DNA from: a virus
Virus record (IMG/VR): IMGVR_UViG_3300045988_087221
Reading direction: 5' to 3' (one strand)
Length of the DNA: 64,000 nt
Shown piece by piece: positions 1 through 64,000 of this stretch (position 1 is its first letter; every line of letters begins with the position of its first letter). The translations under genes were made by a program, and so were the position numbers. The notes below the pieces were generated by a model that saw only the letters and a list, made by a program, of their open reading frames with translations, had not been told where the DNA came from and made no database searches.

Positions 1-3000
1 AATAGTATTTACAAGTAGAAGTAAATGGTCAGCTTTACTAGTTCTAGTCAGCTAGTTCAGATAAAGCCTTTATGTCTAATAACTAGACTCTCTCTATCTC
101 TAAAGCAAATATTAATTACTTATATACTTCTAGCCCTAGACCTACTATTAACTTTGATTAGATAAGTGGTAGAACTACTACATTATTTAATGATAGTCCA
201 GACTATTGGAAAGCTTCCGATGGTAAAATAATTTATAGAGTTGAGGCTAATACTAATAAAGTATTTGAAACTCCAGTTAATTTACAATTAAGTAATAACT
301 TTACTCTTGAATTTGGATTTAAATCATATAATGTAAGTAATGAAGAGTCTCCAGTAATTACATTTGGTCAAATGTTAATTAAACCAACTGTAGTATGTTG
401 GAATACATCAGCAGAATAGCTTTATAATGCTCGATTTGCACAATTTAAAGAAGATGTAGATACTCATATTACTATTACTGTATAGAAAGGATTTACTCTT
501 AATTAGAATGATCCATATTATCCTAATTATTTCTTAGCATAGGATTCTTATAATACATTAAAAGCTAATTTGGACAGTGCTAAGTTTAACTTAGTAAGAA
601 TCTATGTCAATGGAGTAATTAATAGAGAAATATCTATTGATGATGCCACTTTACTTGCATTGTAGAAGGAAGCTTAGTTACAAATAAATCCTAAGGGGTC
701 AGACTTAGACTTATATTTATTAAGAGTTTATAATTCTACAGCACTTACTTTTGATTAGATTTAGCATAACTATATTTCCTTCTTAGCTACTAGAGAATAG
801 AAAGATAGGTTCTACGATAGAAATAATATCTTAGGAACTGATGGTGCTATCTCATTCGCCAAGAGCTTTGGTAAATACAATACATTAGTATATGTATTCC
901 CTAAAGGAGGTAAGTTACCAAATAGAACTTGGCAAGGTGAAAACAATAAACCTGGAGACCAAGATAATGCAGCTAAGAAAATTAGATGTACATTATTTAT
1001 TAACTATGCTGATTAGGCAATTAATAAAATATATGGTGGTAGAATAAATAATGGTCTTGTTAAGGGTTAGGGTTCTTCTGCTATGCGTTATTTAATTTGG
1101 AATACTGCATTCTAGTTAAATAAGTTTAAAGATGGAGAAACTAAAGTAAAGAGTGTATTTACTCCTTATGAAGACTTAGATACTGCTACTAATAAGTTTA
1201 TTGCTAAACCTGCTCATGAAAAGAAAGGTTATTATAACATGCCACCTTATGACGGTTAGACTGATTCTACTGAAAAAGATTTAAAGGTAACTAAACTTGT
1301 AGGTAAAGTTAATTTTGCTTCTTCTATGTAGTCTCATAAAGAGGGAGCTTGTAAACTTTATAATGATGCATATAAAGCAGACACTGATTAGAAGGGATTA
1401 CTTAATGGAGGTCGTAAAGCAGTACATGAGGAAGCTTTCTTATACTTCTATTTAATTACTGACTTAGAGTCTGTAGCTAACTATGAATTAGCAGATTTAC
1501 TTAAGAATCCTGATGTTTAGTTTATGGGATTCTAGACATTTGGTTCAGCTAAAGGCGATAAAGCTACTTTTGGCTATGACGATGATAAAACTCCTGAATA
1601 TATCTTAATAGAAGGTGGCGAGAACTCTGACCCTCATGTTAACTTTAGAAGACCTTGGGCTGCTTTACAACGTGTAGGATTAAATTCAGCTGGCTCTAGA
1701 ACATTAACTAACTTCCCAACTGTAACAGTAGCAGAATAGCAATCATCTAATAGAGATTACTCAAAGAATCTTTGGATTTCTGATGAATCTATTGTTTACC
1801 AGAATCGTGGTTCTTGGGATGTGGACTTTGGTTTGAATGATGAAGCTACTGATTTCACAGAACCTGCTCGTAAATCATTAAATAAGTTTGGAGAGTTTGT
1901 AGACTTTGTTTATAAATATAACTTTAATTTAGTTAAGACTGGTGAAACAGATATTACTAAATGGAATACATTAAATAGATATATAGCTACTAAGGCTATT
2001 CCAGCATTTACTGGTTCTAGAGAAGGTGATATTTATCGTTATGATGAGTTTGCAGGAAGTACAAGTGCTACTGGAGAAGCTATTGGAGGCTGGGTAAGAG
2101 GAGGTACTATATATGATCCTACTACGGGTTGGTCAAGACTTAATATCTATGAAGACTTTGATATGGATTCTAGTATTAATCAGCTTGATATAGCTATTGA
2201 TGAACTTAAATCTTTATTTAAGAAGGGTATAACTAAATACATTGATGTAAATGATGTGGCTATGCATCAAGCAGTTATTAGATTCTTATCAGGTACTGAT
2301 AATAGAGCTAAAAATACTTACTTCTAGATATTTGGTAAAATCTATGAAAATAAAGCATAGACTGATGAAACTGATAATTGGTAGCCGTCAGATAAAGGCG
2401 ATTACCTAATTAGATTATATGGTGATGACTTGGATACTGTTATTGCAACTGATAATAATGGTCTGTAGTCTAAACCTTATAACTTACTTGAACCATCCTA
2501 TGTTCCTGAGACTGCCTCTCAATGGGGTGATAGTGGATTAAATGCTTTCTTCTATATGTTTGATTTGTAGTTTGAAGATATTATTAAAAATAAACTCTAC
2601 AAAGTAATTAATCAAGCATTTGGAACAGCATCTGGAGAAAATACTAACTTCTATAAATACTTCTATAGTATTCAGGCAGATAAGTATCCAGCTATTGCAT
2701 ATAATCATACTGCTCAAATTTACTATGAGAATGCTCAGATAATTAAGAATGCAGGAGCTATTGAACACTATGACAATAACCAAATTGAACCTATTGAATA
2801 GAGCCATGGTTCTTGTTTAGAGGGTGAACAATAGTTTATGGAAAAGAGAAGAAACTTCTTAGCTTCATATACTAAGTAGAGTGAAACTCCTGATTATAAA
2901 ACTGGCTCTTCTGCAGGTGGTAATGATAGGAGACCTTTATAGTTAAGATTAGAGTTTACTCCTTTCTAGGATTTCTATCCTACTTATTTCTATGATGGAA

Positions 3001-5267
3001 CTAAATATTTGATGCCTAATAGTAATACTGACTATAGACCTGATATAATTAAATATTTAGCTAAAGCCGATTAGGATTATGTAGTTAACTTAAAAGAAAC
3101 TGGTACAGCTATTAACGAAGGTTTAATATCTACAGTATTATTTAAGAAACTTAATATTACTGGTTTAGTTAACTATAGTATAGCTCCAGAAAAAGAATAT
3201 ACTAGATTAACTAACTTTACTATTGATAATAATAACTTAAAGACTTATAAAGATTTCTTTGGTGCAGATTATCCAGAGTATAGATTAGATGTATTCAGTA
3301 TGAAAGGTCCTGTATTGGAAAGTCTGACTCTCAATAACATGACTACTCTTGAAACTCTTAATCTTACAGACTTTAATAAGTTAAGAGAAGTCAATTTAAG
3401 TGGAACTACATTTAAGAGAGTTATATTATCAAGTAAAGCTGAGACTATAATTCTCCCTGAGACTATTGAGACATTAGAATTGTATAATCCAGTTAAAGAA
3501 CTTAGATTAGAAGGAACTAGTAATTTAAAGACAGTAGATTTATCTAATGTTGGACAATTTGATGTAGATTCTTTCTTAGAATAGTTAGTTGATTGCAACA
3601 GTCTTGAATCTGTTTCCTTACGTAATTTAACTATTAATGTAACTGAGCAGACTCTCTCTAAGTTACTCTCTGTTAAAAACAATATTACTGGAATAATTAA
3701 TATTGTAGATAGTACAGGTGATTTGGTAGAAATTAGTTATGATACTAAGAAGAACTTGGTAGAATAGTTTGGAGATATTGATAGTGCAACTAATAATCCA
3801 AAAGTTAATTATAAAGCATCTAGTTCAGCTTTCTCTGCTACTTGTGATTCTGAAATAACTGTATTTGGATTAGGCGATAAAGGAACTGGTAAATTTAATC
3901 TTTAGATTAATAGTAACTAGGTGGGAATAGTAAATGATCCAACTCCTAGATTACATATTGATTATTAGCTAGCTAGTTCTACTTATGATTAGTACTTAAA
4001 GGTAGACTCAAAGACAGGTAATATTACTTTAATTAGAGAAAGTACTACTGTATAGCCAGTAATTAATATTTTAGTATATAGAATTGGAAGTTCTACTCCT
4101 ACTAAACTTACATGTAAAGTTAAAATCTAGTGGACAGCTCCTCAAATTGGAGACTTTGTTTATTATGATGGTTCATATTCTAATAACTATAATGCTAATA
4201 AGACTTGTGTAGGTATGGTATATGCTGTAGAGAACACTAATGATACTAGTGGAACAGCTTATGTTATAGGTAAGGAGAATATGACTGAAAATGCTTCATT
4301 CTATCTTGGATTTAGTCCTGATGGAGGTAATAGTGGGGCAGACCGAGGTACTTTAGAATATTGCTTATTCTATGTGGGTAACTGGCTTAAGAACCAAAAC
4401 TTAATCTCAAAAGTGGATAGTTCTGACTCTAACGACTATATAGCTATGTCAGGAGTGTCTACTGATAAACCTGTAGATGAGATTACTTATACATCATATA
4501 CTGATTTCACTACAACAGGATTTACAGGTAAGGAAGATACAGCTATTTATGTTAATACTATAAATAATTCAGTTTTAAGTAAAGTTTATTCTGCATTTGG
4601 CACTGCAGTTAAAAACTATATTACTTATGATAGTGTTAATCAAAGATATAGTATTAAGAGTATGGATAAGTTAATAGCTCTGTGTAAGGGATTGACTTTA
4701 CCTTCAGTAACTATAAGTGAGTTATCTAGTTGTATATTATACCCTTATTATTACGCAGCAACTCTATATTAGCCTACATTAAGATCTACTGAAGGTACTA
4801 TTTATAGTTAGTTTGCATAGGGTAATTGGTACGTACCATCTGCTAAGTAGTTAGCAAGAATTATGTATTATAGAGGTTATAGTGCTAAGGGAACTCAATT
4901 CTTAACTAGCACTTCTGTTGCAGAAACTATTACTAAACAAAGTTCTGGTACTGAAGCTAAAAATAAAGCCATATTCTCTAATGCTAAATAGGTTATGGGA
5001 ACTAATTTCCCTTCAGTATGGTCTAATATAGCTAATAATTAGAATACAACTACTACTATAAACACCTCTTCTAATTATAATAGTTACTCATATTAGAGTA
5101 TGTGTACAGATTATAGCTGTGTTGCACATAGATATGAGTGGATTCCTGGTAAGAAGTTTACAGTTGGTTCATATGATTAGAATTAGTATTAGTATGAAGC
5201 TGCTTGGAGAGTAACTAAGCATTAGGGAGTTCCATTTACACAATTTACTTATAATAAAGGCGCTTAA
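1..5267 (+). CDS. Giant multi-domain tail fibre / receptor-binding protein, N-terminus outside window (>=1754 aa)
   Basis: With TAG read as sense, the frame with codons starting at positions divisible by 3 is open from the window edge to TAA 5265-5267. Track ORFs 1821, 3300 and 4215 all lie in this frame. Motifs by eye: LamG-like LRVYNSTALTFDQIQHNY (720-773); CotH-like FLSGTDNRAKNTYF...LYGDDLDTVIATDNNG (2281-2462); leucine-rich repeats LESLTLNNMTTLETLNLTDFNKLREVNLSG (from ~3315); DUF1566-like GNWYVPSAKQLARIM (4821-4865). Confidence 0.8.
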
Positions 5268-5268
5268 A

Positions 5269-8562: not shown

Positions 8563-8568
8563 TAAATA

Positions 8569-11500
8569 ATGAAAATAGCATTTAATCCCTCTACGGTGGC
8601 AGCCTTAACATCTCCACCAGATAACAAAGATATTACATTTGACCTCAGAGGGCATAATATATTTGCACGAGGGGTTAAATTTTAGGGCACAGATACAAAT
8701 ACTTGGAGAGATATAAAAATAAATAATGTAAGTATAGGTTCTCATACCTTAGACTTACGTAATGGTAGTAATACTACATTAACTAATACTAATGGTGTAG
8801 TAACTATCAATTCTACTTGGAGACCAGTAGTGGATAGCTTAACTAGTAATTCCGCTACTAGTTCTCTTTCTGCTAATTAGGGTAGAGTTTTAGCAGGATT
8901 AATTAATGGTAAATCCGATTCAGACCATAATCACGATGATAGATACCTTAAGTTAACAGGTGGAACATTAACGGGCAATCTAATTGGAACTTCTGCCATG
9001 TTTAGTGGTAGATTTTATGGGGGTGGAGACGATGAAGGAATTATAATCAAACCCTCATCTAATGGATATGCAGGACTTATTTTAGGAACACATGATGGAG
9101 AGAGAAGTATTTTCTATTTTGTAAAGAACAAACCTTTTTGGAGATATAGTCATGGTTCTGATAATTTAGATATTATACACCCTAAAAAATCTGGAACCAT
9201 TGCCTTAACTTCAGACATTCCATCATCTTTAAAAAATCCGTATGCTTTAACTATTAGTTTAAATGGAACAAGTCAAGGTCCTTATGATGGAAGTGCTGCT
9301 AAGAATATAAATATTACACCTGGTTCTATAGGAGCTGCTACTAGTGATCATAATCATGATGGTAGATATGTCTATAATTATGGCGGAATCCAAATGGATG
9401 GAGCTTCTGTAAATAAGAATGCCTTAGGTATGACTACTAATAGTGGTATTACTGGAGATTGGTGGCATATTTTACAAGCAGCATGGAATGATGAATATCG
9501 TTGGAACTCATAGATAGCCTTTCCTACATAGAATAGAAATGGTATGTATTATCGTAGTGGTTTAGATGATAATACTAAATGGGGAAGTTGGGTTAAATTA
9601 CTTGATACTAATAATTACTCATCTACTCTAGATTCTCGTTATTATACAGAATCAGAAGTAAATAGTCTTTTATCTAAGAAATTAGATAGAGTTAACTTAA
9701 CTACTGGAAGTTGGAATCCTAGAGGTTATAGTTTAGCCGCTGATTATCACTATAATGGAGGAGATTTATCTATTTCAGAAAATAGTGGATAGATACATGT
9801 ATCTATTGATGGTTATTTTTGGTAGAATGAAGGTAAATATAGAGTGTTGGATACTTCTGATGTCGCAGGATTAAAAGGTGATTTAACAGTATATTAGTAT
9901 TTATCAGCTACAGATGCTACTTGGTGGCCTCTAATATGGGGAGGAAGTTCTCATGCTAATACTAATGACTCTACTGGAGCTGTTTATAAATCACATGATA
10001 AATTATCTTGGTAGGCTGGCACTTAGACATTATATGCTACTAACATTCGAACAGAGAATATAAGACACCTATCTATAGGAGGCGGTATTTATTGGAATCC
10101 TAATGTAGAGTCAGCTACAGATGGTAGTGATGCCGCTTCTATCACTTTAGTTAAATCAGGTGTAGCAGGAGGAACTACATTAGTACTTAGTTAGATGAAT
10201 GATGCTAACGATACTATATAGTTTAAAACTAATGCTGCTGCTAGATTATATCATAATAGTTATCCAATATTAACTATTTAGAATACCTATGTAAGTAATG
10301 GCAAAGGTTATATAAACGGTACTGAGATTACTTAGGTAAATAATTCAGATACTATTGATGGATGGCATAAGAATAATATTCAGTGGACAGGATACATAAC
10401 TTCTCCTAATTCTATAGCATCTTACTGGTTTAAGATGTATGATATAACTGTTACTGGGCATCAATATAATGATATAACTATTACGTTTTTAGTTAGTGAA
10501 GGTTATAGTTCACATTTTTCTATTTTCTATCTAAGAATTAGATAGAATGGAACTAATAATTCTGGAAATTATAATTTAGGTATATCTTTGTATGAGTTAG
10601 TTGGAAATTTACGAGATAAAGTAGTAGCTTATTACAATAATAGTACTGGAAATGTATAGTTATGGGGTAATACTGGTGGTATATGGAGTACCATGAACTA
10701 TACAATTCTCAAAAAAACCTTTAGAACAGATACAGACTCGGCATCTTTAGGCACATTAACTGCTTAGTCATTTAGTTCAGTATAGACACCACCATCTACT
10801 GGATACTCTAAAGTAACTATGTCTAGGGTAGGTTCTGTATCTTATTCAGATAGTACAGGCTCAGTTCATTGGAATAATGTGACTAATAAACCAAGCTCCT
10901 TCACTCCTTCTTCTCATACTCACACTTGGACTTCCATAACAGATAAAATAGTAGCTGGTAATGAGTTCAATATAGTTAATGCAGGATTTAAAGAAGACTT
11001 GTGGTTCAATTATTTACCTATAAATGATAGAAGTAAATCGGCAACTATTGATTTCTATCATCTTGGAAATGGGCATAAAGGTTATGCATCCCTTATAGCT
11101 TCAGGATTTATAATAAATGGTGGAACTAGTTAGTAGTTATTAAGAGCTGATGGCGGAGTTGCTACCTTTAATTGGACTGGTTAGTCAGGCTAGCCTACTT
11201 GGTTATGGGGAGGAAATAGTTAGCATTCTTATTATGTATATAATCCTAGCAACTTTAGAGTAGCTTACGCTGCCTCCGCTGGAAACGCAGATACTTTAGA
11301 TGGAGAACATGCATCTAATTTTGTTAGAGCTGGAAACTTTGAATCATCTGATTTAAATAAGTTAGATACTTATTCGTTTATTAAATCTGCTTATTCCACT
11401 AATAAAGATACTTCTCCTAAAGGTAATATTGGATGGTATAATGTTATTTAGGCAGTACATAGAAATGGAGCAAGTGATGGACCAGGTTATATAGGTTAGA

Positions 11501-13128
11501 TAGCATTAGGTATGACTATTAATACGGACGATATGTTCTTTAGAGGTAAGAGAACTGATCCTTGGAAAACAGTTATCCATTCAGGTAATATTGGATCTTA
11601 GTCAGTAGCATATGCTTCTAATGCCGATATGGTAGATGGATATCATGCTACTAGTAATAATAATAAGCCTTGGGGTACTATTCCAGCTATTACTCCTAGT
11701 GGATTTATGGATATAGGAAAACATTTAGAATTTCATTATGATAACACCACCGGGTCGGATTACTCAACAGCTCTTATGTGTTAGGGTAATTACAGCAATA
11801 TTGTTTATCTTCCAACGGCAAGTGGTACTCTTGCGTTAACATCCCAGGTATTAACTTGGAAGTCTTAGATTATTGACATGCGTAATTATAGTGAAAGTTA
11901 TTGGCATCCTGTCACAGTACCTCTACCTAATTTGGGATACAATAAAATTAAAGTCTCAGTGTAGCTAAATAGTGGAGATAAACCTTCTTGGGCTACTCAT
12001 AGTAACGGAATTACTTGCAATATGGAAATATGGGCAACAGCCAGTGGATGGGGAACTACTGATTCTGATACTATATGTTTAAATTATACTTATAAATTTT
12101 GTTCACAAAATCCTTGTGGTTGGATGCAGTTAGGTAATTCATCATTAGGAGTGGTCTTTTTAAGAGGAGGTTCTAGATATACCGTTTATACTGACTTTGA
12201 TGCTACTTTTACCCCTCACAATTAGAAATATACATGGGGTAGTGGCAGTTCTTCATAGGATACAGGAGGACCATATACTAGTTGCCCAGGTCTTAATTTT
12301 AATATGGGTGCAATACGTGCTGATTTAATTGCAACTCTGGTACAAGCCAGAAGGGTATGTGCAGGACATGACCCTGGGATAGACAATTCTATATCTTGTT
12401 CTAACTGGTTTAGAAGTAGTGGAAATACAGGTTGGTATAATACCACATACTAGGGAGGTTGGTATATGTCAGATACCTCTTGGATTAGGGCACATAATAA
12501 TGTAGGAATTTATACTGGTGGTCAAATTTACTCTGGTAGTTCCATTAGAATGGGTAGTATTCGTTTAGAAAGAACTAATGAAATTAATAGTAGTGATAAT
12601 CTATTTATAAATTATGGAAGTTCTACTAACGTTAGTTTATGCAACGGAGGAGGCAATGTAGGTATTGGTACTATATCTCCCACACAAAAATTAGATGTAA
12701 ATGGAAACATTACTACTAAAGGTTTTGGAATACAACCATGTTATCTATCTGAATTAAACTTATTTCCTACCATTAGCCCTGGTGATGGTTATAAATATAA
12801 ATGCTTAGAAATAGGTAGAACAATAGACATATCCTGTATTATTGCTGATAAAGCAGTCTTAATGAGTGAAAGAGGAATTTTGATAAAATTTAATAAAGGT
12901 TATGATGGTTAGATAATATTACTGAAGGATTTGTAGAGTTATGGAATTGGAAATGGCTATTTTTGGGTTATGCCTTCTGGGTGTAATATAATAAAAGCAG
13001 ATGGTAGCAGTATTCTTGTAGGTTAGAATTAGATAAGTGATATATATAATGATGGTCGTTCGCGATTTTTAGTATATTCTTCTGTACATAGCGTGTGGAT
13101 AGAATTTCTTTGTGCTAACATTAATTAA
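8569..13128 (+). CDS. Long tail fibre protein (1519 aa)
   Basis: ATG 8569. Track ORFs 8998, 9544, 10819, 12022 and 12466 all share its frame, and I read every gap between them as open apart from TAG. The first TAA is 13126-13128. Fibre motifs: SDHNHDDRYLKLTGGTLTG, SDHNHDGRY, PSSHTHTW, GWYNTTYQGGWYMSDTSWIRAHNN, NVGIGTISPTQKLDVNGNI. Confidence 0.85.
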
Positions 13129-13149
13129 CTTTTACTCTAACCCAAATTA

Positions 13150-13165: not shown

Positions 13166-13187
13166 GTTTAATAAAAATAAATGATTT

Positions 13188-13939: not shown

Positions 13940-13940
13940 T

Positions 13941-14655: not shown

Positions 14656-14668
14656 TGTTCTGATGTTT

Positions 14669-15793: not shown

Positions 15794-15794
15794 G

Positions 15795-51800: not shown

Positions 51801-54800
51801 AAATAGTAAATTGATAGACCCTGTAACTGGAGCAGAAGAATCTGATTAGGATTTTATTAATCGTAAGAATAATAGAACACGTCAAATTGAAGCTCTTAAC
51901 GATTAGAAAGATGCTGAGTGGGTTAATAATATAATGTAGTAGCTAGCTGTAGTAGGTAATTAGTTAGACCCAATAGCAGCAGGAACATTAAAGAAACTTA
52001 TTCCTAAGAGAATTAAAGATGTATTAGCTAGAAAAATATAGTTGGCACCATTAAGTAATGAAGTTAAGAGTATTTTGGGTAATCTTAATACAGATTTAAG
52101 TAATACTAAGGAAGTATTAGATACTATTAAGAATAGTGCTTTAGCTAAAACTAAGAGTTTAGTTAAATAGAAAGCAGCAAGTATTCCTAAAGTTTATACA
52201 AATTTTAAAGGAGAAGAGTTAAATCCCGAAGATTTATTTACGATTGATGGGATAGAAGATATGACTATTTAGGAATTAATAGACAATCCTTCTTAGTTAT
52301 ATGATATTGACGATGATTAGAAGTAGGATATTATTAATCAACTACAAGCTATTACTGATCCAGAATTATAGGATTAGATATAGAATATCTTAGCTAATAT
52401 AAATGATCCTCAAGCTACTATATAGAATCTTAATTAGTTATAGAAATCAGCTCCTTAGTATAAATAGAAAATAAATAGTTTATTAGATTTATATGAATTT
52501 AAAATATCTAAGGAATAGTCTGATAAAGTAGTTAATAATCTTATTGATTTAGCAAGTATAATTAATCCTGATACTAGTATATCTTCATTAGTAAATGATG
52601 ATATGGGAATCTAGGATTAGTTAGATTCAGATGTTGAATCATATGTTTCAACATTAACTCAAGGTGTAAATAATGAAGTAAATTCTTTAGTTGCAGATGT
52701 AGGTAACAATGCTATAGTTAAATTACATAACTCCATATAGAGTACTATTAAGAATCCAGTAATTGAATTAGTTAAATCTCTTGCAGGAAAAGTTCTTGAT
52801 AAAACTCAAATGCCTGATGTTATTGATACTTTAACTAAATTAGACACTAATTTTGATGAAGTTGAAAATATTGGAGAATTAGTACTTGATGGAGAGCAAA
52901 TGAAAACTCTTTAGAATACTAGAGATGCTTTGGCTATGGTAGCTACATATTTATATGCAGCTTCTAGTACTCCTACAGGTAACAATGTTATAGGACATAA
53001 CAAAGTAATAAATGAGTATGCTAAAAAACATAGTGACGCTGTTCAAAACTGGGAAGAACTTCCTGAAATTGATGATGATTATGCAACTATATATTAGGAG
53101 CAACTTAATTAGTTTATAAAGACTCTTGATGCTTGGATTGATTTATCTAATAATAACGATATAAATAAGAGAAGACAATTTGAAGAAACTGATAAAGCTT
53201 TAACTAGAAGTTTTAATGGTTTATGGCAAGCTAATAAACAACATTTTGTTATCGATGTAAAAGATAAACATTATAACTTGTTAGAAGGTAGTTTGGATGA
53301 TAATGTTCCAGATGTTTCTCTATTTAATTATGAAAAGGCTTTTTATGGTAATTTTTAGAAAGCTCTATAGGAATCAGGAATGTCTGTCTCTGAGTTTTTA
53401 AAAGAATCTAATATTCTTGACAAACTAATTAGTTTTAATTAGTTAGGAGATTAGAGAAATACTCGATTAAACCCTAAAATGTAGTATGGAGATATGTCAG
53501 AATATGACAAACTCCAATATTTAGCAACTATATTATCACTTAATCCAGTTGATTTTTATAACTTTTTAAAAACTTCAGTAGGATAGAACTCTGATAAAGC
53601 ACCAATAGCTAGTCAGGAATATGCTTCAAAAGTAGCTATTGCTTAGACTACTTAGACTTATAGAGATATAATGAAATATGCTTTTGATAAGTCTGGAAGT
53701 AATTTGTATAATGCTAATAATACAGTAATAATTACTGGTGATGCTGGTAGTGGAAAAACTTCTGTAGTAGGTAAATCTGTTATTGATTTTCTAGGACCTG
53801 AGACCAAAGTACTATGTGTGGGACCAACTTCTACATAGGCTTAGGGATTACTTACCTCATTTGGAAGAGGAAAGTCAATGGATATTGAATCCTTAATGAG
53901 AAAACTTTTAGGAGACACAGTTTGGGCAGATTTAAAATCAGATTTAGATATAGAGTATAAGCCAAGTAAAAACTAGTTAGAGAAAGATTCTGAATACTTT
54001 AGTTATTCTGCAGGTGATTTTGCTTAGACTAAACTTAAAAAAGACTTTACGTTTAATTAGTTAGATGAGATTCCAAGTATATTAGCTATAGATGAAGCTA
54101 CTCATATCCCAGCTCCGGTACTCCAAGTTTTAGATACTTATATGTAGAAAAATGGAGGAACTTTAATGTTACTTGGAGATGAAAAATAGAAAGGGTATTA
54201 TAATAAAAATAATGCTATAGGCAATATGAGACCTGTAGATTTATTTGCTTCTAGAACTCCTGAATTAAGTGTATCTTTACGTGATAATAATATTTAGAAA
54301 CAAGCTAATTTGAACAGCGTAAAGACTATCTTATCTTAGGCTATTACAAATATGTATGAAATGTCAGAATCTGATTTATCATCATATTGGAAAACTATTA
54401 ATCCTTTACTTTCTAAATTGAACTTTAGAGTTTATAATTAGAATACTTTAGCAGGTGATTTAATTACCAAGACTTTATCAAATGATACCATTAATAAATT
54501 AAAAACTTCTACTAATGTGGGATTCATTGGAGATACGTCTAGTGCTGCATACTAGGCTATGAAACAAGCAGGTATGAATCCTACTGTATTATCCAAGGAT
54601 TAGATGTAGGGTTAGGAGTTTGAATATGTAGTAATTGATCAACCATTCACTAAACCCGATGCAGATTTCCATATTAGAGACTTTTTACAAGATTTATATA
54701 CTTTAATGAGTCGTGGTAAAACTGCTTCTATTTTTATCGATAATGGATTAAGTAATATCATAGGTAATAATACTCAAGATGATTATACTGCTAAAGCTCC

Positions 54801-57800
54801 TAGTCTTAAAGATAAGATTAATGGAAAAAGTACTATAGAGTAGCTAAAAGAACGTAAATTATCTATATTAGATTAGTTAGATTTATCTCCTATTGAAGGT
54901 TTAAATGAAACATCTAATTAGACTACTTAGTAGGCTATAAATCCTACAGATTTTAAAGCACCTGAATCTTTAAATATAGATAAAGATACTGAAGAAGCTG
55001 TTAATTAGTTAATTGATTCTGAAGAAGAAACTAAAGATTCACATGAAGTTGAAAATTCAATAAAAAGTGAATTTACAGTAATGTCTTGGGGAGATTGTAC
55101 TTTAGTTGGAGCTAAAGCTGTGGAAGAAACTCATAAAGGTAAAAATGGTAAAGAGTATAAAGGAAATGCATGGCATTTTGGACCCGATTAGAATGGGGAG
55201 TTACGTAATATATCAGCTTTAACAGATTAGAAATCAGTTTTCTGGTATACAGATAAGCAGACTTTAGAAAAATAGCTATATTAGGTAAAATCTGCTTTGA
55301 TTTTTAATCATAGTTATGATGAAACCATTTTAGGTACACATACTAGAGTAATGCCAACTTGTATAACTGACAACTTTAGTAAAGCTGATTGGGATGCAGG
55401 CACTTATGAATTAGAGATTCGTTCTGTTGAAGGGGAAATTCAACCCTCTTTTAAGCCTATGCCAGAAGTAGGTATGACTTATAAAGGAAATAAGTATGTG
55501 GCTAATATTATATTTAAAGTTAAAAATAAAAAAGGACAAATATGTAAATTTGACTTAGCAGGTATTAATAATCCTGAGACTTTAGCTAGCAATTTAAGTA
55601 AAATAAAAGACAGAATTAGCCAAGAACTTTCTGATCCAACTATTTCTAATGAAAGAAAATCTAAATTACAAAATATCCTTAGTACAATCGAAAATAGGTC
55701 TTAGAAATGGGCTAATTTGTTTGATTCTTGGATAAACAAATATAATAAAGAAGGTAGTTTTTCTATAGATATAAGTAAAGCAATAGTTAGATAGAAACAT
55801 ACTTGGTTTACTAAAAGAACTGGATCTGAAATAAGACTGGGAGGTAGAATTGACCCTAATGCTGTTGATAACACTAAGGATTTTAATAATATGAAAGACA
55901 GAAATCCTGGATTTGTATTTTCAGAAGTATATACTTATGCAGCTAAAGACCCTACTCTATTGAATATTGACCCTTCCTTAAAAGGAAAAGCAGTAGTATT
56001 TGTTTCTTCTGATACCTTATTAAAACCAGAAGATTTAGTTAAATAGTACATAAAACAAATTCAAGATCCAGAACATAATTAGCCTATAGTTAGAATGATT
56101 AGACTTCATAATTATGGTATGACCTTTAGTCAAATGACAAGTAATGAATTCTGTAATAAAATTTAGGGAGGAGATGATACTCGACTTCCTTATAGAGCTA
56201 ATTATCATGGAATTTAGATGTTTGTTTCCTTATGGAACTGGAGAGCTGCTTTAAGTAAATTTAATGAAGCTTTAAATAATTGGATGTAGGAAAATTAGTA
56301 CGATGCTAAGAAACTAGACACATTAATTAAAGCTCAAAATTACTTATTTAATAATAAATAGGTAGATGCAGACACTTATTTAACTAGTAAAAAATTAACT
56401 AGAGCTGATTTAAATAATTTAGAAAAGTTTAACTAGGAAGTATGTAAAGATATACCTACCTTTAGATTAGGTTACTCAAAAAAACATGACTTTCATGTTT
56501 AGCGATTTAAAGTTGCAGGTAGTTAGGCTTATAGAAATAAGTCTGAAGCTAATTTAATAGTTATAACTCCTGATAAAGCCAAGCAGTTCTATTAGTTAAG
56601 TAATAGAATATTAGGAGCCATATGTCCTTCTCCTTATGTTGATACTTTAGGTCTTTAGTTATTACATCCTGGTGCTTAGAATCCTGATGGAACTAGAGAA
56701 CCTGATACCCCTTGGGAAGAAAATGAATTTATTGATATAAATAGTGCTGATCATTAGAGAACTCTTTCTGGTTTATTTACGTCTGATTTAAGAATTGTAG
56801 AAACTAAAAAGGATAAATCTAAAATAGACATTATTTATAAACAAGGTGAGTAGTGGTCTGCAATCCCCAGATATTTAAATAATATCCTTAGAACCGTTAC
56901 ATTCTTTTAGTATAATCCTGATTAGCTTTCAGGCACCTATACAGAATCTGCTAAAGTATCTTGGGATGATAATGGAACAAAGAAAACAGTAAGTACTTAG
57001 ATAGGGGATTTATTTGGCAATGGAGGATTATTAAAAACAAGAAATGATACCAAAGTTAAATCAGGAGAACATCCTGATAGAAGTCTTGCAGATATGTTCG
57101 ACTTAATGTTCCATGGAACTACTGATGATATTCATAGAAAATATGATAAGAACAATCCATTAATGAGAGCAGATGATGCTAGATTCCCTTATGGCTTTTT
57201 TATTAATCCTGATATATCTAGAACTAAAGAGAGTGCTAGTTCTACTGATATAATTAGTATTAAAGCAGGAAAAGAAACTGTATTTTATCCTATTAAAACC
57301 TCTGATGAATTATTTACTTCCGACAATGATTTAAGAGCAGCAGGAATTGATTTATCTATTGATGAACTGTTAAATAACACAGTAAGTCCAACTAATTCTA
57401 CAAATACTTAGACTAGTACTGCTCCAGCAACTACTCAGCCTAAAATAATTCCATTAGAATAGAGAATGCCTGTAGCTGCAGAAGTTCTTAAACAGGTTAA
57501 TGACTCAGGTTTTAACTTTGATGAAGATACCCTAGAAGAGGCTGTTGATAAATTAAATGAAATTACTAAGAACTCGATAATAGATGTATTTAAAACAGTT
57601 GGTTAGGACTAGGCTTTAGAGCTGCCTATAAATTACACTTATTAGAAAACTGGAGATGTTAAGAAATAGACTTTAAAGGATATAATTAGTTCTTAGGTTC
57701 AAGGAGAATTTAATTTAAAAACTAAGAGTATTAATGGAGAATCTAAATTAATAGTGGAAAATAACGGAACTGAGTACGAATTAGATACTGAAACCTGGAC

Positions 57801-58116
57801 TCTTAAAGGCGATTAGGTATAGAAAGTCAATAATAAATTGGATGAGTTAATTAACTTTAACGGTAAAGAAGTAAAAAAATCAGTAGCCCTTAATTAGCTA
57901 TTAAATAGTTAGGAATTTAAAAATAAACTTGACGATACTAGCACTCTAGATGAATTTATATAGAAATTAAACACTCTTATAAATAATGCTAAAACTCTTA
58001 ATGAGGATTAGATTTCTGAGGCATTACATAAATTGAAAGATGACCTTAATTATGTAGATATAACTGGACTAATATATGATGATTATCCAGAGTTATATAA
58101 AATATTTGAATGTTAA
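48895..58116 (+). CDS. Giant protein (3073 aa) with an embedded SF1 (RecD/Dda-like) helicase/ATPase domain
   Basis: ATG 48895. Track ORFs 49438, 50296, 50698, 55297 and 57094 share its frame. The first non-TAG stop is TAA 58114-58116. Helicase motifs: GDAGSGKT (53737-53760), VGPTSTQAQGL, AIDEATH (DEA at 54091-54099), LLGDEKQ (Q is TAG 54187-54189), QMQGQEFEYVVID (54601-54639) and LYTLMSRGK. Confidence 0.85.
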
Positions 58117-61100
58117 TGGCAGTATGTAACTTGCTAAATACCTATAGTCCAGCAGATATAGGTAGAGCCTTAATGACTTATTCGCGTGACGAGAATGCTG
58201 ATAAATTTATTGATAGATTTATAAACAAATAGGGAATACCTAAAACAACTAGATATAAATTAGATTCGTTAGATTCTGAAGATAGTATTTAGAAATCTAT
58301 TCAAGGATTTAATAAATCTATGGATGATGCAATAGCAGCACTAACTTCTAGAAAACCGGATTTGCTTCCTAAATTTAATGAATTAAGAAGTAAAGTATTA
58401 GAAACCCTTCATGTAGACTTAGACGAACACTCGTCTGGGTCTACTCCAGAGGGAGATAGTTCTATTGAAGCTAAAACTACTTTTGAAATATTAGATAATA
58501 ATTAGTTAAGTTTAGATGAACATCTTAAAGAAATATATGGTACTGGAGCATATAATATTATTAGACAACTAAAAGAAGGATTTAATGACAACCTTTTTGC
58601 AGCATGTTATTATAATGTAGCTAATGGAGTCTTAGTTGTACAAGCAGATAATGTGTTAAATTAGAATCTTATTAATCTTAAAAATAAATATTTTAAGTAG
58701 ATAGTAGAATATTTAAAGTCAGTAGATTCTAAGTATGAAAAATTACCTAATGAATTTGTAAATGAAGAAGGATTTATAGGAGGTAAGTATTTTTATGTAA
58801 TGCAAGCTTTTTATGATCATATGAAACATATTCCTAATTTACAATAGACTCTAGATAGTTTATCCTCTAAAAGACTTAATAATTATGATAAAGTATCTAA
58901 TACACAGGCATATACTTAGGTAGTAAATGTTTTATTACAAAATCCGGATTTTAAAAAGACCCTATTTAATATTTATAGGTCTGGAAAATAGCAAGATAAT
59001 GTAAGGAATACATTGTATTTAGCAGACCATTTGTCTTCCTATTTCTATGAAGTTAAAAGATTATTAAATACTAAGAAATATCAAGATTTATTAGATACTG
59101 AAATAGACGGAAAAACAATCAAAGATATATTAGATAGTTTTGAATTAGAAAATAATGATTTATTAAATGCTGCAAATGCGTATACCTCTCTAATTCATTT
59201 TGATGAAATGCTAGTAGACTCTTTAGGAGATGCCATTGACATCAAACAGGGATAGAAAGGAATGGAGTTTGGAGACCCTACCAAATATTCATACAAATAG
59301 GAAACAGCTCATTAGAAAAAAAGTTGGCAACAAAGTGAATCAGTAGAATCAGAAAAATATATAGCAAATGTAGTTAAAGCATTCTTTAGTTAGATAAGAG
59401 TGTTAAATTATAAAACTGACCAATTTTAGAATAGAAGATTAAATAGCACTTCAGTTATTGTGGCTGCCAGAAATCTTATTGATGATGTTCTATATAATAA
59501 ACTTGATTTATTGCAATGGGCTAGGAATAACGATAATAGGGAATAGGCTGTTAATGATTTTGCTTTAGCTTTAATAGATTTACATGAGAATCCATAGAAT
59601 TAGTTATATAAAGCCTTAAGTTTGTTATTTGAACCGATAAAAGGAAGCAGTTAGAGATTAATTGACACAATTCCATTAAATAATACTACTGCGACTACCG
59701 AATATGATTTAAATATATTATATTCATTATATGAAGCTGCTTTAAATGAAAGTAATCCAAATTCTTTAAGATCTTAGGAATTAAAAAATGCTAAACAGAT
59801 AAACGGTACAGTTGCTTAGTTGTCTGCTGAAATATCGGGTATTATAGATAGGAATACTACTATGCATTATCTTGAAACGTCTTTTGATGGCAAAACTGGT
59901 ATGGTTCAAATTAAGGTAAAGAAAAGATACTTTAATAATGCAGATACTTACAAAACTAGGGTAAGAATTAATAGAAATATTAATAATGCTTCAGCTTCTG
60001 AACGTGAAGCTAGACGTAGTAAGTGGTAGTTTGACACTATTAATACTGTAGATGGCAATAAACAGTATTCTATAGTAATTGGAGATGAAAAAGTTACTTA
60101 TATATCTACTCAGATATTAAATTCCGATGGTAAATATTAGAATAATGAATTATTTAATGATTTAAATAAAATTGATTTAACTTCCTTTAGATAGAAATTA
60201 CTTAGAAATGAGGAACTCACTGAACGGGAAAGAAAATTAAAAGATCTATTATCTTTTATTGATGACCATTTAAGTTTAAAGATTCTAGATAACCCTTCAT
60301 AGAAAATTCAGCAGCTTGAGATATTTCAGTAGTTAAATAAGGATAATTTAAAGAATTTAACTACGTTAGCTATTAAAGCAGCCTATGTTAATTATCTCTA
60401 TGATGAGGCTGGAGACTAGGATTTTGCATAGTATTTATCTAATACAGGTAAAGATGGAATTTATCGAATTTATGAAAATAATAAAAAGAGCAAACTGTTT
60501 ACTAATATGTTTAATAACTTAAAAATTACAGTTGCTTCTTTTAAGGATAGTATACTTGAAGCTTGGAGTGACGCTTATTCCATGTAGTCAGGAGAAGCTT
60601 CTAAGGCTACTACTAAAAATAAAGCTGGTGATAATATTCCAAATAATAGTGTAAATAAATTAGGTACTAATATTCATCATTATTTATTTAAATAGAAAGA
60701 TACTAATGCAAATAGTTTGTTCTTTGTTCAAGATTCTACTAAAATTAAAGGTATTCAACATGACTTAGAAGCTACTTCACAGTGGCAAGAGTCTAAATAG
60801 TTAAAGAATTTTTCGTAGGGAGAGTTATTCTTTCATTCTGTATTTAATAAGTTCTGGGGAAGCTATTTACAATATGGAACATTTATAATATAGCCTACAG
60901 CTTATTCTGATAAAACTACTTTCATTAATTATGAAATTACTAAGAATCTATTTGGAGACGATATTATAAATGATGAAAATCTAAAAGACACTATAGTTAA
61001 AGAGACTATTAACACTATAGGCACCTTTTATAAAAATGTATGGAATTCAACTAAAAATAAACTGCAAAGACTAACTGATGCCTATAATAATTAGCATGGG

Positions 61101-64000
61101 ACTAACTATACATATCAATAGATGTTAGCTAATATTACTGAGCCAGAATTAATTAAACTAGCTGATTCCATTGGCGAGAAAGTTACTTTAGATGCTGATT
61201 ATCGAAAGGCAGGTAAACATTTAGCTGTAAATGAACTCTTATAGTATTATGCCGAAGAGTTATATGCTAACAAAGGCACTTTGAATGCCTTCTTAGAGCA
61301 ATAGAAACATTTATTTGTACAAAACTTTCTTGATAATAACTGCACTTATCAAGTAGTTAATTTAAATGATTCAGTAGATAATTATTATGGTGAAAAGTTA
61401 CCTGAATCTATTTCTAATAATCCTATCATGTAGACTATTTTAGGATTATATAAGAATGACTCTAAGGGTAGAAGTGCTTTCTTTAAAAACTGGGTAGATG
61501 CTAAGACAGGTAAGTTGATTTTAGCTAAATAGAATGGTTTAAACATTATATCTAATACTAAAATAGATTCTAGTAAAGATATTGTAGTAAATCCATTGCT
61601 TGATAAATTCTTCTATGTTGAAGGATTCTTAAGTAATAATTTACGTATGAGTTTAACTGGTTCTGAGATTAATCACCCGGATAAAGCTAAACAAACCACC
61701 TATAATTTAGTAAAATCTTGTGATAATTCTGTAGATTTCTTTACAAAAACTAAAATGTAGGTAGATGAAAATACTTTCTAGCAAGCTAAAGAGTTTTTAA
61801 ATACAACTAACTCTGTTGCTGACTTAAAATATACTACAATACCTGCTAATATATCAAGCTTTATAAATGATATTTATCATTAGTCTATGACTATGATAGC
61901 TAATGTAGCTTAGGGTACTTAGTTTAAGCGTAATGTAATTATACCTGCCACTTTACAGTACTGTCTACCTAAAGTTATAAATGGTATTTCTGCTAAAACT
62001 AAATGTGCAGTAATTAGAGACGAGGGCGCCTCAGTGTATAACTATAGAGGAGACCATGAAGATGATATTGATTCTGCGGATGGTTCTGCTCAAATTAATC
62101 CATTCTAGTCTATTTTGGAGAATAAAGCATTAGGTTCTCAGGCTGTAGGATTTATTAAAAAACCTATTTGGCATGCTTATGACCCAGTAACAGGTACTGC
62201 ATTCTTAGCTAAGTTTGCAACCGATACTATCACTAATGAAACTATGCGAGCTTCCTTAAATTCTCACACTAGTCTTTTTAAAATGTTTAAAAAGATGACT
62301 AACTTACCATGGAAGGGTGATGTGGATTTAATGCAATCCATAGCTTTAGGTAATCTTGATGAATCTAAAACTTTGGCTACAGTTAGGTGGTTTAATAATG
62401 TTATTCTTGGAAATGCTGACGGAATTAAAAACAATTAGTTATACTATAAAAATAAATATGGTGACTAGGTTCAAATTACTGGTTTTAATAAAACTATAAC
62501 TAAAGAAGGAAATACTCTATACTATACTACAGAGGCACCTGTAATTAAGGGTATAGAAGCTCCTTCGCATAAAGTGTATCATGTATTTTATGATTCCCCT
62601 AACTAGAAAAGTAATCATATTACTTTTGATACTTGGCAATAGGCATAGGCATTTTTAATGGATTAGTCTAATCCAGAAATGACTAATAAACATACCATTA
62701 ATTCTTTATTTGAATTACATACAGCTTTAGGAGGTATTAATTGCATTGATAGTAAGGGAAACTACTCAGAATTTAGTAACGAGGTGGTTGTTAATTTTAT
62801 GAATGCAGTTGGTCATAAAGTTAATGAAGGTACTGACAATGTTCCTCTTGATTAGGATAATTATATATAGCCTCTTAAATAGTATCATATTGGTTATGCT
62901 TTAAATAATACAGCAGTAAAAAATGGTGCATAGAATATTAATCAGTCTAGTGCTTGGTATGATGATAAAGACCTTAGTTACTTTGAAGTAGACTCAGATG
63001 GTCTTGGAATGTAGATGAATGCTGACCATGATATTATAGACTCTGAACTTACAGAGTTTTCTTAGGTTATTACTGCTACATCAGCATATGGATTTACCTA
63101 TGATAACACTGATGAAATATTTTAGGGTCTTGGAAGAGCTTCCTTAGCTACTACTAAGAAAATGAGTAAAGCTGTAGATACTTTTATTCAGAATTTTGAA
63201 GATCCAAAACAAGCTTAGTCAGATTTATATGACGCTATTGGTAGAATTGTAATGAAATCTTCTTCTATTAAAGATAGGGAGAGTTTATAGCATGTAATTA
63301 TGTAGGCAGTAGAATCTGTATTCTATAAAAGTAAAAATCACTAGCAAGATAGTTCTAAAATACCATTTAGTGACCCTAATGTATATTCTGATTTCATTGC
63401 TACATTAGCCAGTACAATTAACAAAGAAGCTATCAAACGTAAGCACCCAGGTTCTGGATGTGTTATGGTTCCTGCTTATCATATGATTCAATATTTTGAA
63501 TTTGGTGGTGAAAAATTAATGGCAACTGACATCTTAAAAAGAGCATAGGAAGATTATAAATAGTCTCTAATTACTCTATTATAGGGTCATCAGGATTATA
63601 CTCCAGAAACTAATTCTATAGGAGAGTTTTTTATAAATGGACAATCCATTAAATAGTTAGAAGATTAGGTACAAAAATTAAAAATAGAAAATCCTGATAG
63701 AATTGATACATAGGATATAACTAGTTATAATCATTAGCTTATTTAGAGATATTTAAATAGAAAGCAACAAGAAGTAGAAATAAGACCTGATAAAAGTTGG
63801 TTTATGCCTTCCGATAATGTAAATATTATTGACTCTGAAGGCAAAGTTCATACTGTAGAATTAAATTCTATGGATGACTATTACAAGTTTAAGGATGGAA
63901 TTAACGATATAGAAATAGCTAATAATGTATCTATAAAAGTTGATTATAAAAAAGGTACATATAAAATAACTTCACCTACAGCAGAGTTAAATTTAACTAA
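58116..64000 (+). CDS. Giant protein, C-terminus outside window (>=1961 aa), candidate crAss-like virion RNA polymerase
   Basis: The start overlaps the previous stop (TAATG). Track ORFs 58320, 59013, 59820 and 62115 share its frame, which stays open to the window end. Asp-rich candidate metal-binding motifs are DHEDDIDSADGSAQ (62052-62093) and MNADHDIID (63015-63041). The RNA polymerase assignment rests mainly on size and position. Confidence 0.75.

What the first reader, a model, noticed from the sequence alone, without database searches (positions are those of the whole stretch)
1..64000. TAG is a sense codon throughout the window, most likely Gln (table-15-like recoding)
Seen in the sequence: between the fragmented track ORFs the same frame stays open whenever TAG is read through. 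ATG 8569 runs to its first TAA at 13126. ATG 48895 runs to its first TAA at 58114. ATG 32782 runs to TAA 39337. All of the roughly 40 resulting genes end at TAA or TGA, often overlapping the next ATG, and none needs TAG as a terminator. TAG sits on conserved Gln positions: SLT G-Y-F-Q-F (41295-41297), M15 S-Q-H (17928-17930), SF1 helicase motif III GDxxQ (54187-54189) and Q-G-x-E-F (54607-54609). It also alternates with CAA/CAG in a Q/A tail (24686-24727). Established knowledge: TAG-to-Gln recoding is reported in crAss-like and other gut phages. Inference: this phage needs a CUA-anticodon suppressor tRNA, or a recoded host, to make its virion.
Basis: partly seen in the sequence, partly recalled or inferred. 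Interest (0 to 1): 0.8.

Follow-up and report, generated by a model that had tools for sequence, protein, structure and literature searches.

The report
Gut phage reads TAG as glutamine

Summary
With the standard bacterial code the window holds only 3,487 aa in ORFs of at least 100 aa. Reading TAG through gives 18,699 aa, all on the + strand, covering about 98% of the window. The genes contain 615 in-frame TAGs (2.9 per 100 codons, 57% of Gln-type codons). All 37 complete genes end in TAA or TGA.

TAG means Gln. In codon-level alignments to 71 related contigs and to a standard-code relative (MT835470.1), window TAGs pair with TAG, CAA and CAG far more than with anything else. Gln beats every other amino acid by 77 log-likelihood units or more.

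The mechanism was found outside the window. A canonical tRNA with anticodon CUA lies about 18 kb upstream, on the late-gene strand, among TAG-free ORFs. All 31 IMG/VR relatives that cover the site carry it. Neighbouring opposite-strand blocks are compatible with the standard code.

This matches published accounts: Zeta-group crAss-like phages (Yutin 2021), the late-gene code-switch model (Borges 2021) and proteomic proof of TAG-to-Gln (Peters 2022). ENA and Logan gene calls already translate these genes with Q.

Verdict: interpretation supported, already known, low novelty.

The parts
1..64000 (+). Part of a roughly 90-kb late (virion, lysis, cargo) gene block in which TAG is a sense codon. 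It holds 38 genes, all on the + strand, with 615 in-frame TAGs.
   Evidence: The block extends at least 13 kb upstream and about 22 kb downstream in relatives.
72..5267 (+). C-terminal 1,731 aa of a 2,124-2,128-aa gene cut by the window start; 50 TAG.
   Evidence: The full ORF is seen in L088 and L097 and in ENA gene calls.
8569..13128 (+). Tail-fibre protein, 1,519 aa, 35 TAG.
   Evidence: The identical 1,519-aa product is called on ENA contig NODE_6_length_190276 with Pfam Phage_fiber_rpt.
13188..13939 (+). Two small genes (150 and 99 aa) with no TAG; their 14 Gln codons are all CAA or CAG.
17709..18116 (+). Peptidase M15_3 (likely endolysin), 6 TAG. TAG 17928-17930 sits in the S-x-H motif.
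   Evidence: Pfam 2.6e-21. At 17928 relatives carry CAG 26, TAG 19, CAA 15.
21127..22548 (+). crAss-type major capsid protein, 473 aa. Only 2 TAG against 11 CAA/CAG; split into two ORFs under table 11.
   Evidence: Pfam Crass_capsid 4.9e-10.
23552..24730 (+). 392-aa protein with a Q/A-rich C-terminal tail (24686-24727) in which TAG alternates with CAA/CAG. The last sense codon is TAG, followed by TAA.
32782..39339 (+). crAss muzzle protein, 2,185 aa, 46 TAG.
   Evidence: Pfam crAss_MUZ 8.3e-16; 44% identical to the MT835470.1 orthologue.
40914..41576 (+). SLT lytic transglycosylase domain protein, 10 TAG. TAG 41295-41297 lies in G-Y-F-x-F.
   Evidence: Pfam SLT 5.5e-9. It aligns to G-W-F-Q-F of phiKZ gp144.
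41576..42199 (+). DUF192 protein, 9 TAG.
   Evidence: Pfam 3.8e-21. Of the seven TAG-to-residue pairings in the two PDB alignments, one is Q.
48895..58116 (+). Giant 3,073-aa protein, 121 TAG, with a P-loop NTPase region at aa 1607-1960. TAG 54187-54189 is in G-D-x-x-Q and TAG 54607-54609 in Q-G-x-E-F.
   Evidence: Weak Pfam AAA_30/AAA_19 hits. Both TAGs align to Q in standard-code MT835470.1.
58110..64000 (+). N-terminal 1,963 aa of a roughly 3,430-aa gene that runs off the window end; 68 TAG.
   Evidence: A 3,434-codon stop-to-stop open frame with 130 TAG is seen in L072.

Best explanation
The window is the late gene block of a roughly 190-kb crAss-like phage, most likely of the Zeta group, that uses two codes.

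**Proposed mechanism**
1. Early genes, on the opposite strand on both sides of the block, can be read with the host's standard code. A few of them even end in TAG.
2. The virion, lysis and cargo genes carry about 3 in-frame TAGs per 100 codons. They cannot be completed until the phage's own amber-suppressor tRNA (anticodon CUA) is made.
3. That tRNA gene lies about 18 kb upstream of the window. It is on the same strand as the late block, inside a cluster of small TAG-free ORFs, and apart from the phage's main tRNA array.
4. The tRNA is charged with glutamine, probably by the host GlnRS. It inserts Gln at UAG in competition with release factor 1. TAA and TGA remain the only terminators of late genes.

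**Shown here**
- TAG is a sense codon in the window.
- TAG corresponds to Gln.
- Relatives carry the tRNA(CUA) and have standard-code-compatible flanking blocks.

**Inferred**
- The window's own genome carries the tRNA.
- The tRNA is charged with Gln by GlnRS.
- Recoding serves to delay late and lysis proteins (the model of Borges et al.).
For: **Sense reading.**

**Gln identity**
- Window TAG pairs with TAG, then CAA, then CAG, well ahead of all other codons in three divergence tiers.
- The log-likelihood for Gln exceeds the next residue by 97-115 units in each tier. In the reverse direction, TAGs in relatives sit opposite window TAG, CAA and CAG.
- CAA differs from TAG at two positions, so mutational proximity does not explain the pairing.
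- The standard-code relative MT835470.1 is 75-100% coding under table 11 across its 10-kb bins. It gives Q at 53 of 292 aligned TAG sites, against a 3.6% background, and Gln is best by 77 units.
- The conserved GDxxQ and QGxEF sites are Q in that relative.

**The tRNA**
- ARAGORN finds a tRNA with anticodon CUA in 29 of 31 IMG/VR loci. The two missing contigs show it in a second fetch.
- 9 of 10 ENA/Logan contigs have it, and the tenth has it split. 25 metagenome contigs hold its exact 45-nt core.
- It scores 63.3 bits on the Rfam tRNA model, with a canonical cloverleaf.
- It has U1:A72 and G10. Its D-arm and A73 match the co-resident tRNA-Gln(UUG).
- It is 87% identical to the CUA tRNA that RefSeq labels tRNA-Gln in crAss-like phage cr7_1.

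**Two codes in one genome**
- Opposite-strand blocks past both ends have almost no in-frame TAG. A few ORFs there end in TAG.
- MT835492.1 shows the same split between blocks.

**Literature**
- Yutin 2021 (PMC7886860) lists subgroup zeta_4 at 181-188 kb, 'TAG|q', with one Sup CTA tRNA.
- Peters 2022 (PMC9523058) found peptides with Q at TAG in crAss-like phages, one of them 191 kb.
- Borges 2021 (bioRxiv 10.1101/2021.08.26.457843) gives the timing model.
Against: - No tRNA lies in the window, and I could not fetch the tRNA region of the exact source genome.
- The charging identity of the tRNA is inferred, not measured. Its body is about as similar to annotated phage tRNA-Arg(UCU) and tRNA-Trp genes as to tRNA-Gln. 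A73, A38 and the 2:71 and 3:70 pairs differ from the E. coli GlnRS identity set as I recall it.
- TAG sites match Gln less often than canonical Gln codons do against MT835470.1 (18% against 29%). TAGs therefore sit at less conserved positions, or a minority are read differently.
- PDB alignments of the M15 and DUF192 domains put mostly non-Gln residues opposite TAG.
- About 70 kb of the relatives' genome was not examined, so release-factor or synthetase genes were not assessed.
- MT835492.1 is TAG-recoded but shows no CUA tRNA in its 121.6-kb record.
Confidence: 0.93

Rival explanations
1. TAG is a sense codon but stands for another amino acid. Candidates are pyrrolysine (ARAGORN's default label for a CUA anticodon) or a classical amber-suppressor residue such as Trp, Tyr, Glu, Lys, Leu or Ser.
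For: - ARAGORN prints 'tRNA-Pyl'.
- The tRNA body is 85-87% identical over about 61 nt to annotated phage tRNA-Arg and tRNA-Trp genes.
- Most individual TAG sites align to non-Gln residues in distant homologues.
Against: - Gln is the best fit by 77-115 log units in four independent comparisons. The next best residues (K, E, S) have no excess over the normal substitution pattern of Gln.
- TAG exchanges with CAA and CAG in close relatives, and is not seen to exchange preferentially with AAG, GAG, TGG or TAT.
- The tRNA has an ordinary cloverleaf with a 5-bp anticodon stem and an 8-nt D-loop, unlike tRNA-Pyl.
- U1:A72 is kept in every variant.
- Proteomics on crAss-like phages found Q.
Confidence: 0.03
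2. TAG is read as Gln, but the decoding is supplied by the host (a host suppressor tRNA or a recoded host). The phage tRNA(CUA) would then be dispensable or absent from the window's own genome.
For: - The tRNA was not shown in the exact source genome.
- MT835492.1 is recoded but has no detectable CUA tRNA.
- Yutin 2021 notes an imperfect match between recoding and suppressor tRNAs in the Zeta group.
Against: - The tRNA is conserved at the same position in every relative that covers it, from 60% to 99% protein identity. That points to purifying selection.
- The early blocks avoid in-frame TAG and sometimes use TAG as a stop. A recoded host would make that unnecessary.
- From my own knowledge, no bacterium with TAG reassigned to Gln is known.
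Confidence: 0.04
3. The TAGs are not translated. The region would be made of pseudogenes or assembly errors, or the real products would be the short table-11 fragments.
For: JGI's table-11 gene calls on an identical contig give only short fragments.
Against: - TAA/TGA-free frames up to 3,075 codons long occur, against at most 198 in shuffles.
- Full-length collinear homology exists to intact genes of a standard-code phage.
- Pfam domains span TAGs.
- The sequence is identical in three independent assemblies, and the ORFs are conserved in more than 70 contigs.
- The capsid gene itself would be split.
Confidence: 0.01

Closest known systems
Zeta-group crAss-like phages with 'TAG|q' translation (Yutin et al. 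2021, PMC7886860; e.g. subgroup zeta_4, and phage_1 of Ivanova et al. 2014)
   Same: - Both come from the human gut.
- TAG is read as Gln mostly in late genes.
- There is one Sup(CTA) tRNA plus an array of about 20-27 ordinary tRNAs.
- Close relatives use the standard code.
- Intron-like and HNH inserts are present.
   Different: Membership in a named subgroup was not tested by phylogeny. None of the six contig accessions I searched from the tRNA scan appears in their supplementary tables.
The 191-kb crAss-like phage L2_026_000M1_scaffold_35 validated by metaproteomics (Peters et al. 2022, PMC9523058)
   Same: It is a crAss-like phage of the same size class, uses code 15 in its structural genes, and has an annotated suppressor tRNA. 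Peptides with Q at TAG were detected.
   Different: Sequence identity to the window could not be checked, because that genome is not among the sequences I could fetch.
crAss-like phage cr7_1 (Burzaovirus coli, Suoliviridae, NC_055895.1)
   Same: It carries a homologous tRNA with anticodon CUA, 87% identical over 61 nt. RefSeq annotates it as tRNA-Gln.
   Different: It has a 104-kb genome and belongs to a different family. Its gene content outside the tRNA was not compared.
Code-switch model for alternatively coded phages (Borges et al., bioRxiv 10.1101/2021.08.26.457843)
   Same: Structural and lysis genes form a single recoded unit. The replication genes are in standard code. A phage suppressor tRNA lies in a standard-code region.
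   Different: In their ~105-kb crAss-like phages only four gene families prefer TAG over CAA/CAG. Here TAG is the majority Gln codon across the block (57%). No RF2 gene was looked for here.
E. coli supE amber suppressor (tRNA-Gln with anticodon CUA); from my own knowledge
   Same: It is a tRNA-Gln-like body with a CUA anticodon that inserts Gln at UAG in competition with RF1.
   Different: supE is a weak suppressor of rare nonsense mutations in a cell. Here the tRNA must decode about 3% of all codons in some 90 kb of genes.

Membership tests
Phage stop-codon recoding, TAG to Gln (genetic code 15) | In-frame TAG in conserved genes; reading it through restores long ORFs and coding density | tested here: met
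   ORFs of at least 100 aa rise from 3,487 to 18,699 aa and coverage reaches 98%. The capsid, muzzle, M15, SLT and DUF192 domains span TAGs.
Phage stop-codon recoding, TAG to Gln (genetic code 15) | TAG positions correspond to Gln in homologues | tested here: met
   Gln is the best fit by 77-115 log units against three tiers of relatives and against a standard-code relative. The motif sites are Q.
Phage stop-codon recoding, TAG to Gln (genetic code 15) | TAA and TGA are kept as terminators | tested here: met
   29 TAA and 8 TGA stops; none of the 37 complete genes ends at TAG.
Phage stop-codon recoding, TAG to Gln (genetic code 15) | Suppressor tRNA with anticodon CUA encoded by the phage | tested here: inconclusive
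   Absent from the window. Present about 18 kb upstream in all 31 IMG/VR relatives that cover the site and in 10 of 10 ENA/Logan contigs, one of them split. Not retrieved from the exact source genome.
Phage stop-codon recoding, TAG to Gln (genetic code 15) | Recoding confined to late genes; early genes readable in the standard code | tested here: met
   Opposite-strand blocks flanking the recoded block in relatives are table-11 compatible, and some ORFs there end in TAG. MT835492.1 shows the same split.
Phage stop-codon recoding, TAG to Gln (genetic code 15) | Peptides with Gln at TAG | not testable with these tools
   Only literature evidence exists, for other crAss-like phages.
Crassvirales (crAss-like phages), Zeta group | crAss-type major capsid and muzzle proteins | tested here: met
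   Crass_capsid scores 38.8 bits against a cut-off of 27. crAss_MUZ scores 57.7 bits against 27.
Crassvirales (crAss-like phages), Zeta group | Genome of 145-192 kb | tested here: met
   Contigs identical to the window are 190,276, 190,320 and 190,369 bp. Relatives are mostly 178-193 kb.
Crassvirales (crAss-like phages), Zeta group | Placement in the Zeta clade of the TerL tree | not tested
   No phylogeny was run. The assignment rests on size, code and tRNA content matching Yutin's Supplementary Data 1.
Pyrrolysine decoding (the 'tRNA-Pyl' label from ARAGORN) | tRNA-Pyl architecture (as I recall it: 6-bp anticodon stem, 3-nt variable loop, very short D-loop) | tested here: not met
   The tRNA aligns end to end with the general Rfam tRNA model. 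It has a 5-bp anticodon stem, an 8-nt D-loop and a 4-nt variable loop.

The most novel reading that the evidence does not exclude
In this lineage the code switch may have extra control layers that have not been described.

1. The suppressor tRNA is set apart from the phage's main tRNA array. It is placed on the late strand near the head of the rightward gene block.
2. In at least one relative (ENA ERZ28637130 scaffold_2) its gene is split between anticodon nucleotides 35 and 36 by a 1,003-bp insert that encodes an HNH endonuclease. If the insert is a self-splicing intron, recoding of about 90 kb of late genes would depend on RNA splicing.
3. A second tRNA in more distant relatives alternates between CUA and an ochre-type UUA anticodon, although TAA remains a terminator there.
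Probability: 0.3. Interest if true: 0.5.

Novelty: already known. Interest (0 to 1): 0.2.

Why it matters
The practical consequence is for annotation. With table 11 this 64-kb block breaks into fragments; only 20 ORFs reach 120 aa, and the capsid gene is split in two. JGI's calls on an identical contig show exactly this. With code 15 the block gives 38 genes, including seven of more than 1,300 aa.

Biologically, it is a clear example of a phage that devotes about half of its genome to a code its host cannot read, with TAG as the majority glutamine codon.

The phenomenon, the amino acid, the suppressor tRNA and the late-gene restriction have all been published for this phage group. ENA and Logan gene calls already apply the recoding. 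The finding therefore adds a well-characterised instance and no new principle.

Tried and rejected
- **Megablast against GenBank phages.** A search with 24 kb of the window found nothing. Only tblastn with the capsid protein found relatives.
- **PDB alignments for the TAG columns.** M15 and DUF192 gave too few sites, mostly at variable positions. The P-loop region of the 3,073-aa protein had no PDB hit at E up to 1. The 'SF1 helicase' label therefore stays weak.
- **Jumping to the replication block.** A family A DNA polymerase profile built from MT835470 and MT835492 hit other lineages and only one distant relative of the window's family. No tRNAs lay near it.
- **Walking past the window end.** This found the end of the recoded block but no tRNA.
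- **Theta/HDV-like ribozyme next to the suppressor.** No Rfam hit at E up to 1 in L195. The only hit was weak (E 0.029), next to tRNA-Met in MT835492.
- **Group I intron model on the split tRNA gene of L239.** No Rfam hit.
- **The search of protein representatives with X at TAG.** A broad family-wide tabulation of TAG columns was therefore not done.
- **Finding the tRNA in the exact source genome.** I tried protein look-ups, but none of the TerL or 132-aa ORF proteins listed has a longest contig matching the three contigs identical to the window, so I could not pick the source genome's variant for a look-up.
- **Rejected readings.** TGA or TAA recoding gives no ORF gain. TAA is not a sense codon in the relatives that carry a UUA tRNA, because their ORFs still end at TAA.

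Full report
**1. The observation**

The window is 30.8% G+C and holds no tRNA gene. Under the bacterial code it is almost devoid of long ORFs. There are 22 ORFs of at least 100 aa on the + strand, totalling 3,487 aa, and the longest is 296 aa. Only 20 ORFs of at least 120 aa exist on both strands together.

When TAG is read through, the + strand gives 34 such ORFs totalling 18,699 aa, the longest 3,073 aa. Reading TGA or TAA through gives no comparable gain on the + strand.

I defined 38 non-nested genes, all on the + strand. Together with the nested ORFs listed, ATG-to-stop ORFs cover 98% of the window.

The genes hold 615 in-frame TAGs in 20,929 codons, or 2.94 per 100. There are 359 CAA and 107 CAG, so TAG would be 57% of all glutamine codons. 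The 37 genes that end inside the window stop at TAA (29) or TGA (8), never at TAG.

In 200 shuffles the longest TAA/TGA-free run was 198 codons, against 3,075 observed. A 4.45-kb stretch of the window is 100% identical in three independent assemblies of 190,276, 190,320 and 190,369 bp. The TAGs are therefore not assembly errors.

**2. What the region is**

Pfam identifies the following:
- a crAss-type major capsid protein (21127-22548);
- the crAss muzzle protein (32782-39339);
- an M15 peptidase (17709-18116);
- an SLT transglycosylase (40914-41576);
- a DUF192 protein (41576-42199).

The 1,519-aa protein at 8569 carries phage fibre repeats. This is the virion, lysis and cargo block of a crAss-like phage.

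The capsid protein finds 71 related IMG/VR loci, mostly on contigs of 178-193 kb. They fall into tiers of about 93%, 76% and 69% nucleotide identity to the window. It also finds two GenBank records from human faeces.

One of these, MT835470.1 (117 kb, 36% G+C), is 75-100% coding under table 11 across its 10-kb bins and has no tRNA genes. The other, MT835492.1 (121.6 kb, 29% G+C), needs TAG as sense on one strand block only.

**3. Which amino acid**

I translated the window genes with X at TAG and aligned them to ORFs of the relatives. I then mapped every aligned column back to codons.

Window TAG sites pair with TAG, then CAA, then CAG, far ahead of any other codon. This holds in all three divergence tiers. 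Among non-TAG partners Gln makes up 31-36% and the next residue about 10%.

A likelihood comparison used each amino acid's own substitution profile from the same alignments. It puts Gln first by 97 to 115 log units. In reverse, TAGs in the relatives lie opposite window TAG, CAA and CAG. CAA differs from TAG at two positions, so this is not mutational proximity.

Against the standard-code MT835470.1, 20 window genes align collinearly and 313 TAG sites are covered. Gln is the commonest partner, at 53 sites against a background of 3.6%. It is best by 77 log units.

- GDxxQ and QGxEF in the 3,073-aa protein are Q in MT835470.1.
- G-Y-F-x-F aligns to G-W-F-Q-F of the phiKZ gp144 transglycosylase structure.
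- The M15 S-x-H site is CAG, TAG or CAA in all 60 relatives aligned there, though the single PDB homologue has S-R-H.

PDB alignments of M15 and DUF192 were otherwise uninformative. The P-loop region has only sub-threshold Pfam hits and no PDB match.

**4. How it is decoded**

I walked outward from the window on related contigs.

Downstream, the recoded + strand block continues for about 22 kb. It then meets a convergent, opposite-strand block whose ORFs are intact under table 11 and almost free of in-frame TAG.

Upstream, the block continues through a 786-aa large terminase with 17 TAGs. About 7 kb before the terminase, which is about 18 kb before window position 1, lies a 73-nt tRNA gene with anticodon CUA. 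It is on the same strand as the late genes and sits among small ORFs that contain no TAG.

Evidence that this tRNA is conserved:
- It was found in 29 of 31 IMG/VR loci scanned, and the two missing contigs show it in a second fetch.
- 9 of 10 ENA/Logan contigs have it. The tenth carries it split by an insert.
- 25 metagenome contigs hold its exact 45-nt core.

The tRNA scores 63.3 bits on the Rfam tRNA model, with an ordinary cloverleaf. ARAGORN's label 'tRNA-Pyl' is only its default name for a CUA anticodon.

All sequence variants keep U1:A72 and G10, while the rest of the acceptor stem varies. The D-arm and A73 match the phage's own tRNA-Gln(UUG). The closest annotated relative is a CUA tRNA that RefSeq labels tRNA-Gln in crAss-like phage cr7_1. 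From my own knowledge, U1:A72 is the hallmark of bacterial tRNA-Gln, and a CUA anticodon itself favours GlnRS. Charging with Gln remains an inference.

The phage's ordinary tRNA array (Arg, Phe, Trp, Asn, Glu, Gln-UUG, Leu, Met and others) lies 6-10 kb further on, on the opposite strand. It sits inside a block that is table-11 compatible and in which 3 of 12 ORFs end in TAG, each followed by a TAA 5 to 25 codons downstream. On contig IMGVR_UViG_3300045988_061496 the recoded block spans about 90 kb of 180 kb.

**5. Comparison with what is known**

Yutin et al. 2021 described the Zeta group of crAss-like phages:
- genomes of 145-192 kb;
- TAG-to-Gln or TGA-to-Trp reassignment, mostly in late genes;
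- suppressor tRNAs;
- code switches at short phylogenetic distance;
- many introns.

Their Supplementary Data 1 lists subgroup zeta_4 at 181-188 kb, 'TAG|q', with 21-27 tRNAs including one Sup CTA. Peters et al. 2022 detected peptides with Q at TAG in two crAss-like phages, one of them 191 kb. Borges et al. proposed that recoding blocks premature expression of late and lysis genes.

The ENA and Logan gene calls already translate these genes with Q. The 1,519-aa fibre and the 786-aa terminase appear full-length there. The look-up tool, which uses table 11, reports that the terminase locus does not translate to the product on record.

The window fits this picture in every feature I could test. 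Clade membership by phylogeny was not tested.

**6. Verdict**

The finding is already known biology. Its value lies in correct annotation.

Minor points of interest:
- TAG is the majority Gln codon here, whereas Borges found a preference for TAG in only four gene families in smaller crAss-like phages.
- The capsid gene and a few other genes avoid TAG.
- The side observations on the suppressor tRNA are listed under things noticed in passing.

Noticed in passing
L239:1753-2828 (ENA ERZ28637130 SZOS23-1 scaffold_2): The suppressor tRNA(CUA) gene is split between anticodon nucleotides 35 and 36 by a 1,003-bp insert encoding a 272-aa ORF with a weak HNH Pfam hit. The 5' part ends in T and the insert ends in G, as in group I introns, but Rfam gives no intron hit at E up to 1.
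   Followed up: partly
L200-L206 and L211, about 550-1020, minus strand: More distant relatives carry a second suppressor-type tRNA about 2.4 kb upstream of the first, on the opposite strand. Its anticodon is CUA in L200-L202 and L211 and UUA (ochre type) in L204-L206, yet ORFs in L204 and L205 still end at TAA.
   Followed up: partly
window 21127-22548, 22645-23529, 24754-25764, 42314-42601, 13188-13939, 5733-6176: The capsid gene and a few neighbouring or small genes use few or no TAGs (TAG share of Gln codons 0-22%, against 57% overall). This may reflect selection against the suppressed codon in the most abundant proteins, or different expression timing.
   Followed up: partly
window 24725-24730 and 26190-26195: Two genes end in TAG followed directly by TAA. 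This may be a former TAG terminator now read through to a back-up stop.
   Followed up: no
L105-L107 (MT835492.1), tRNAs at L105:11783-13885: This TAG-recoded relative has six tRNAs (Asn, Asp, Thr-UGU, Met, Tyr, Ala) but no CUA tRNA in its 121.6-kb linear record. The Thr tRNA was seen only by Rfam. A weak HDV-like ribozyme hit (E 0.029) lies immediately 3' of tRNA-Met, and a GIY-YIG-like ORF sits between the tRNAs.
   Followed up: partly
L073-L075 (MT835470.1): A collinear relative (capsid protein 60% identical) uses the standard code throughout, has 36% G+C against 29-31% in the recoded lineages, and has no tRNA genes. This is consistent with TAG being gained under AT pressure.
   Followed up: partly
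L195:3266-4009 and L187:3223-4383, minus strand: A minus-strand ORF rich in TAG (16-23 in-frame) sits among the TAG-free + strand ORFs between the suppressor tRNA and the terminase. Recoding is therefore not strictly limited to one strand.
   Followed up: no
L236 (JGI 3300030343 Ga0243299_100003) compared with L229 (ENA ERZ1745351 NODE_6): The same DNA carries fragmented table-11 gene calls in the JGI record and full-length recoded calls in ENA and Logan. Public annotation of this phage is inconsistent.
   Followed up: yes
window 14353-14655: A 100-aa protein with a helix-turn-helix-like segment (…MSKIQACDYLGVSRATFDNYVKNGWIPKG…) and 5 TAGs follows a 414-nt gap, the largest non-coding stretch in the window. 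It was not analysed.
   Followed up: no
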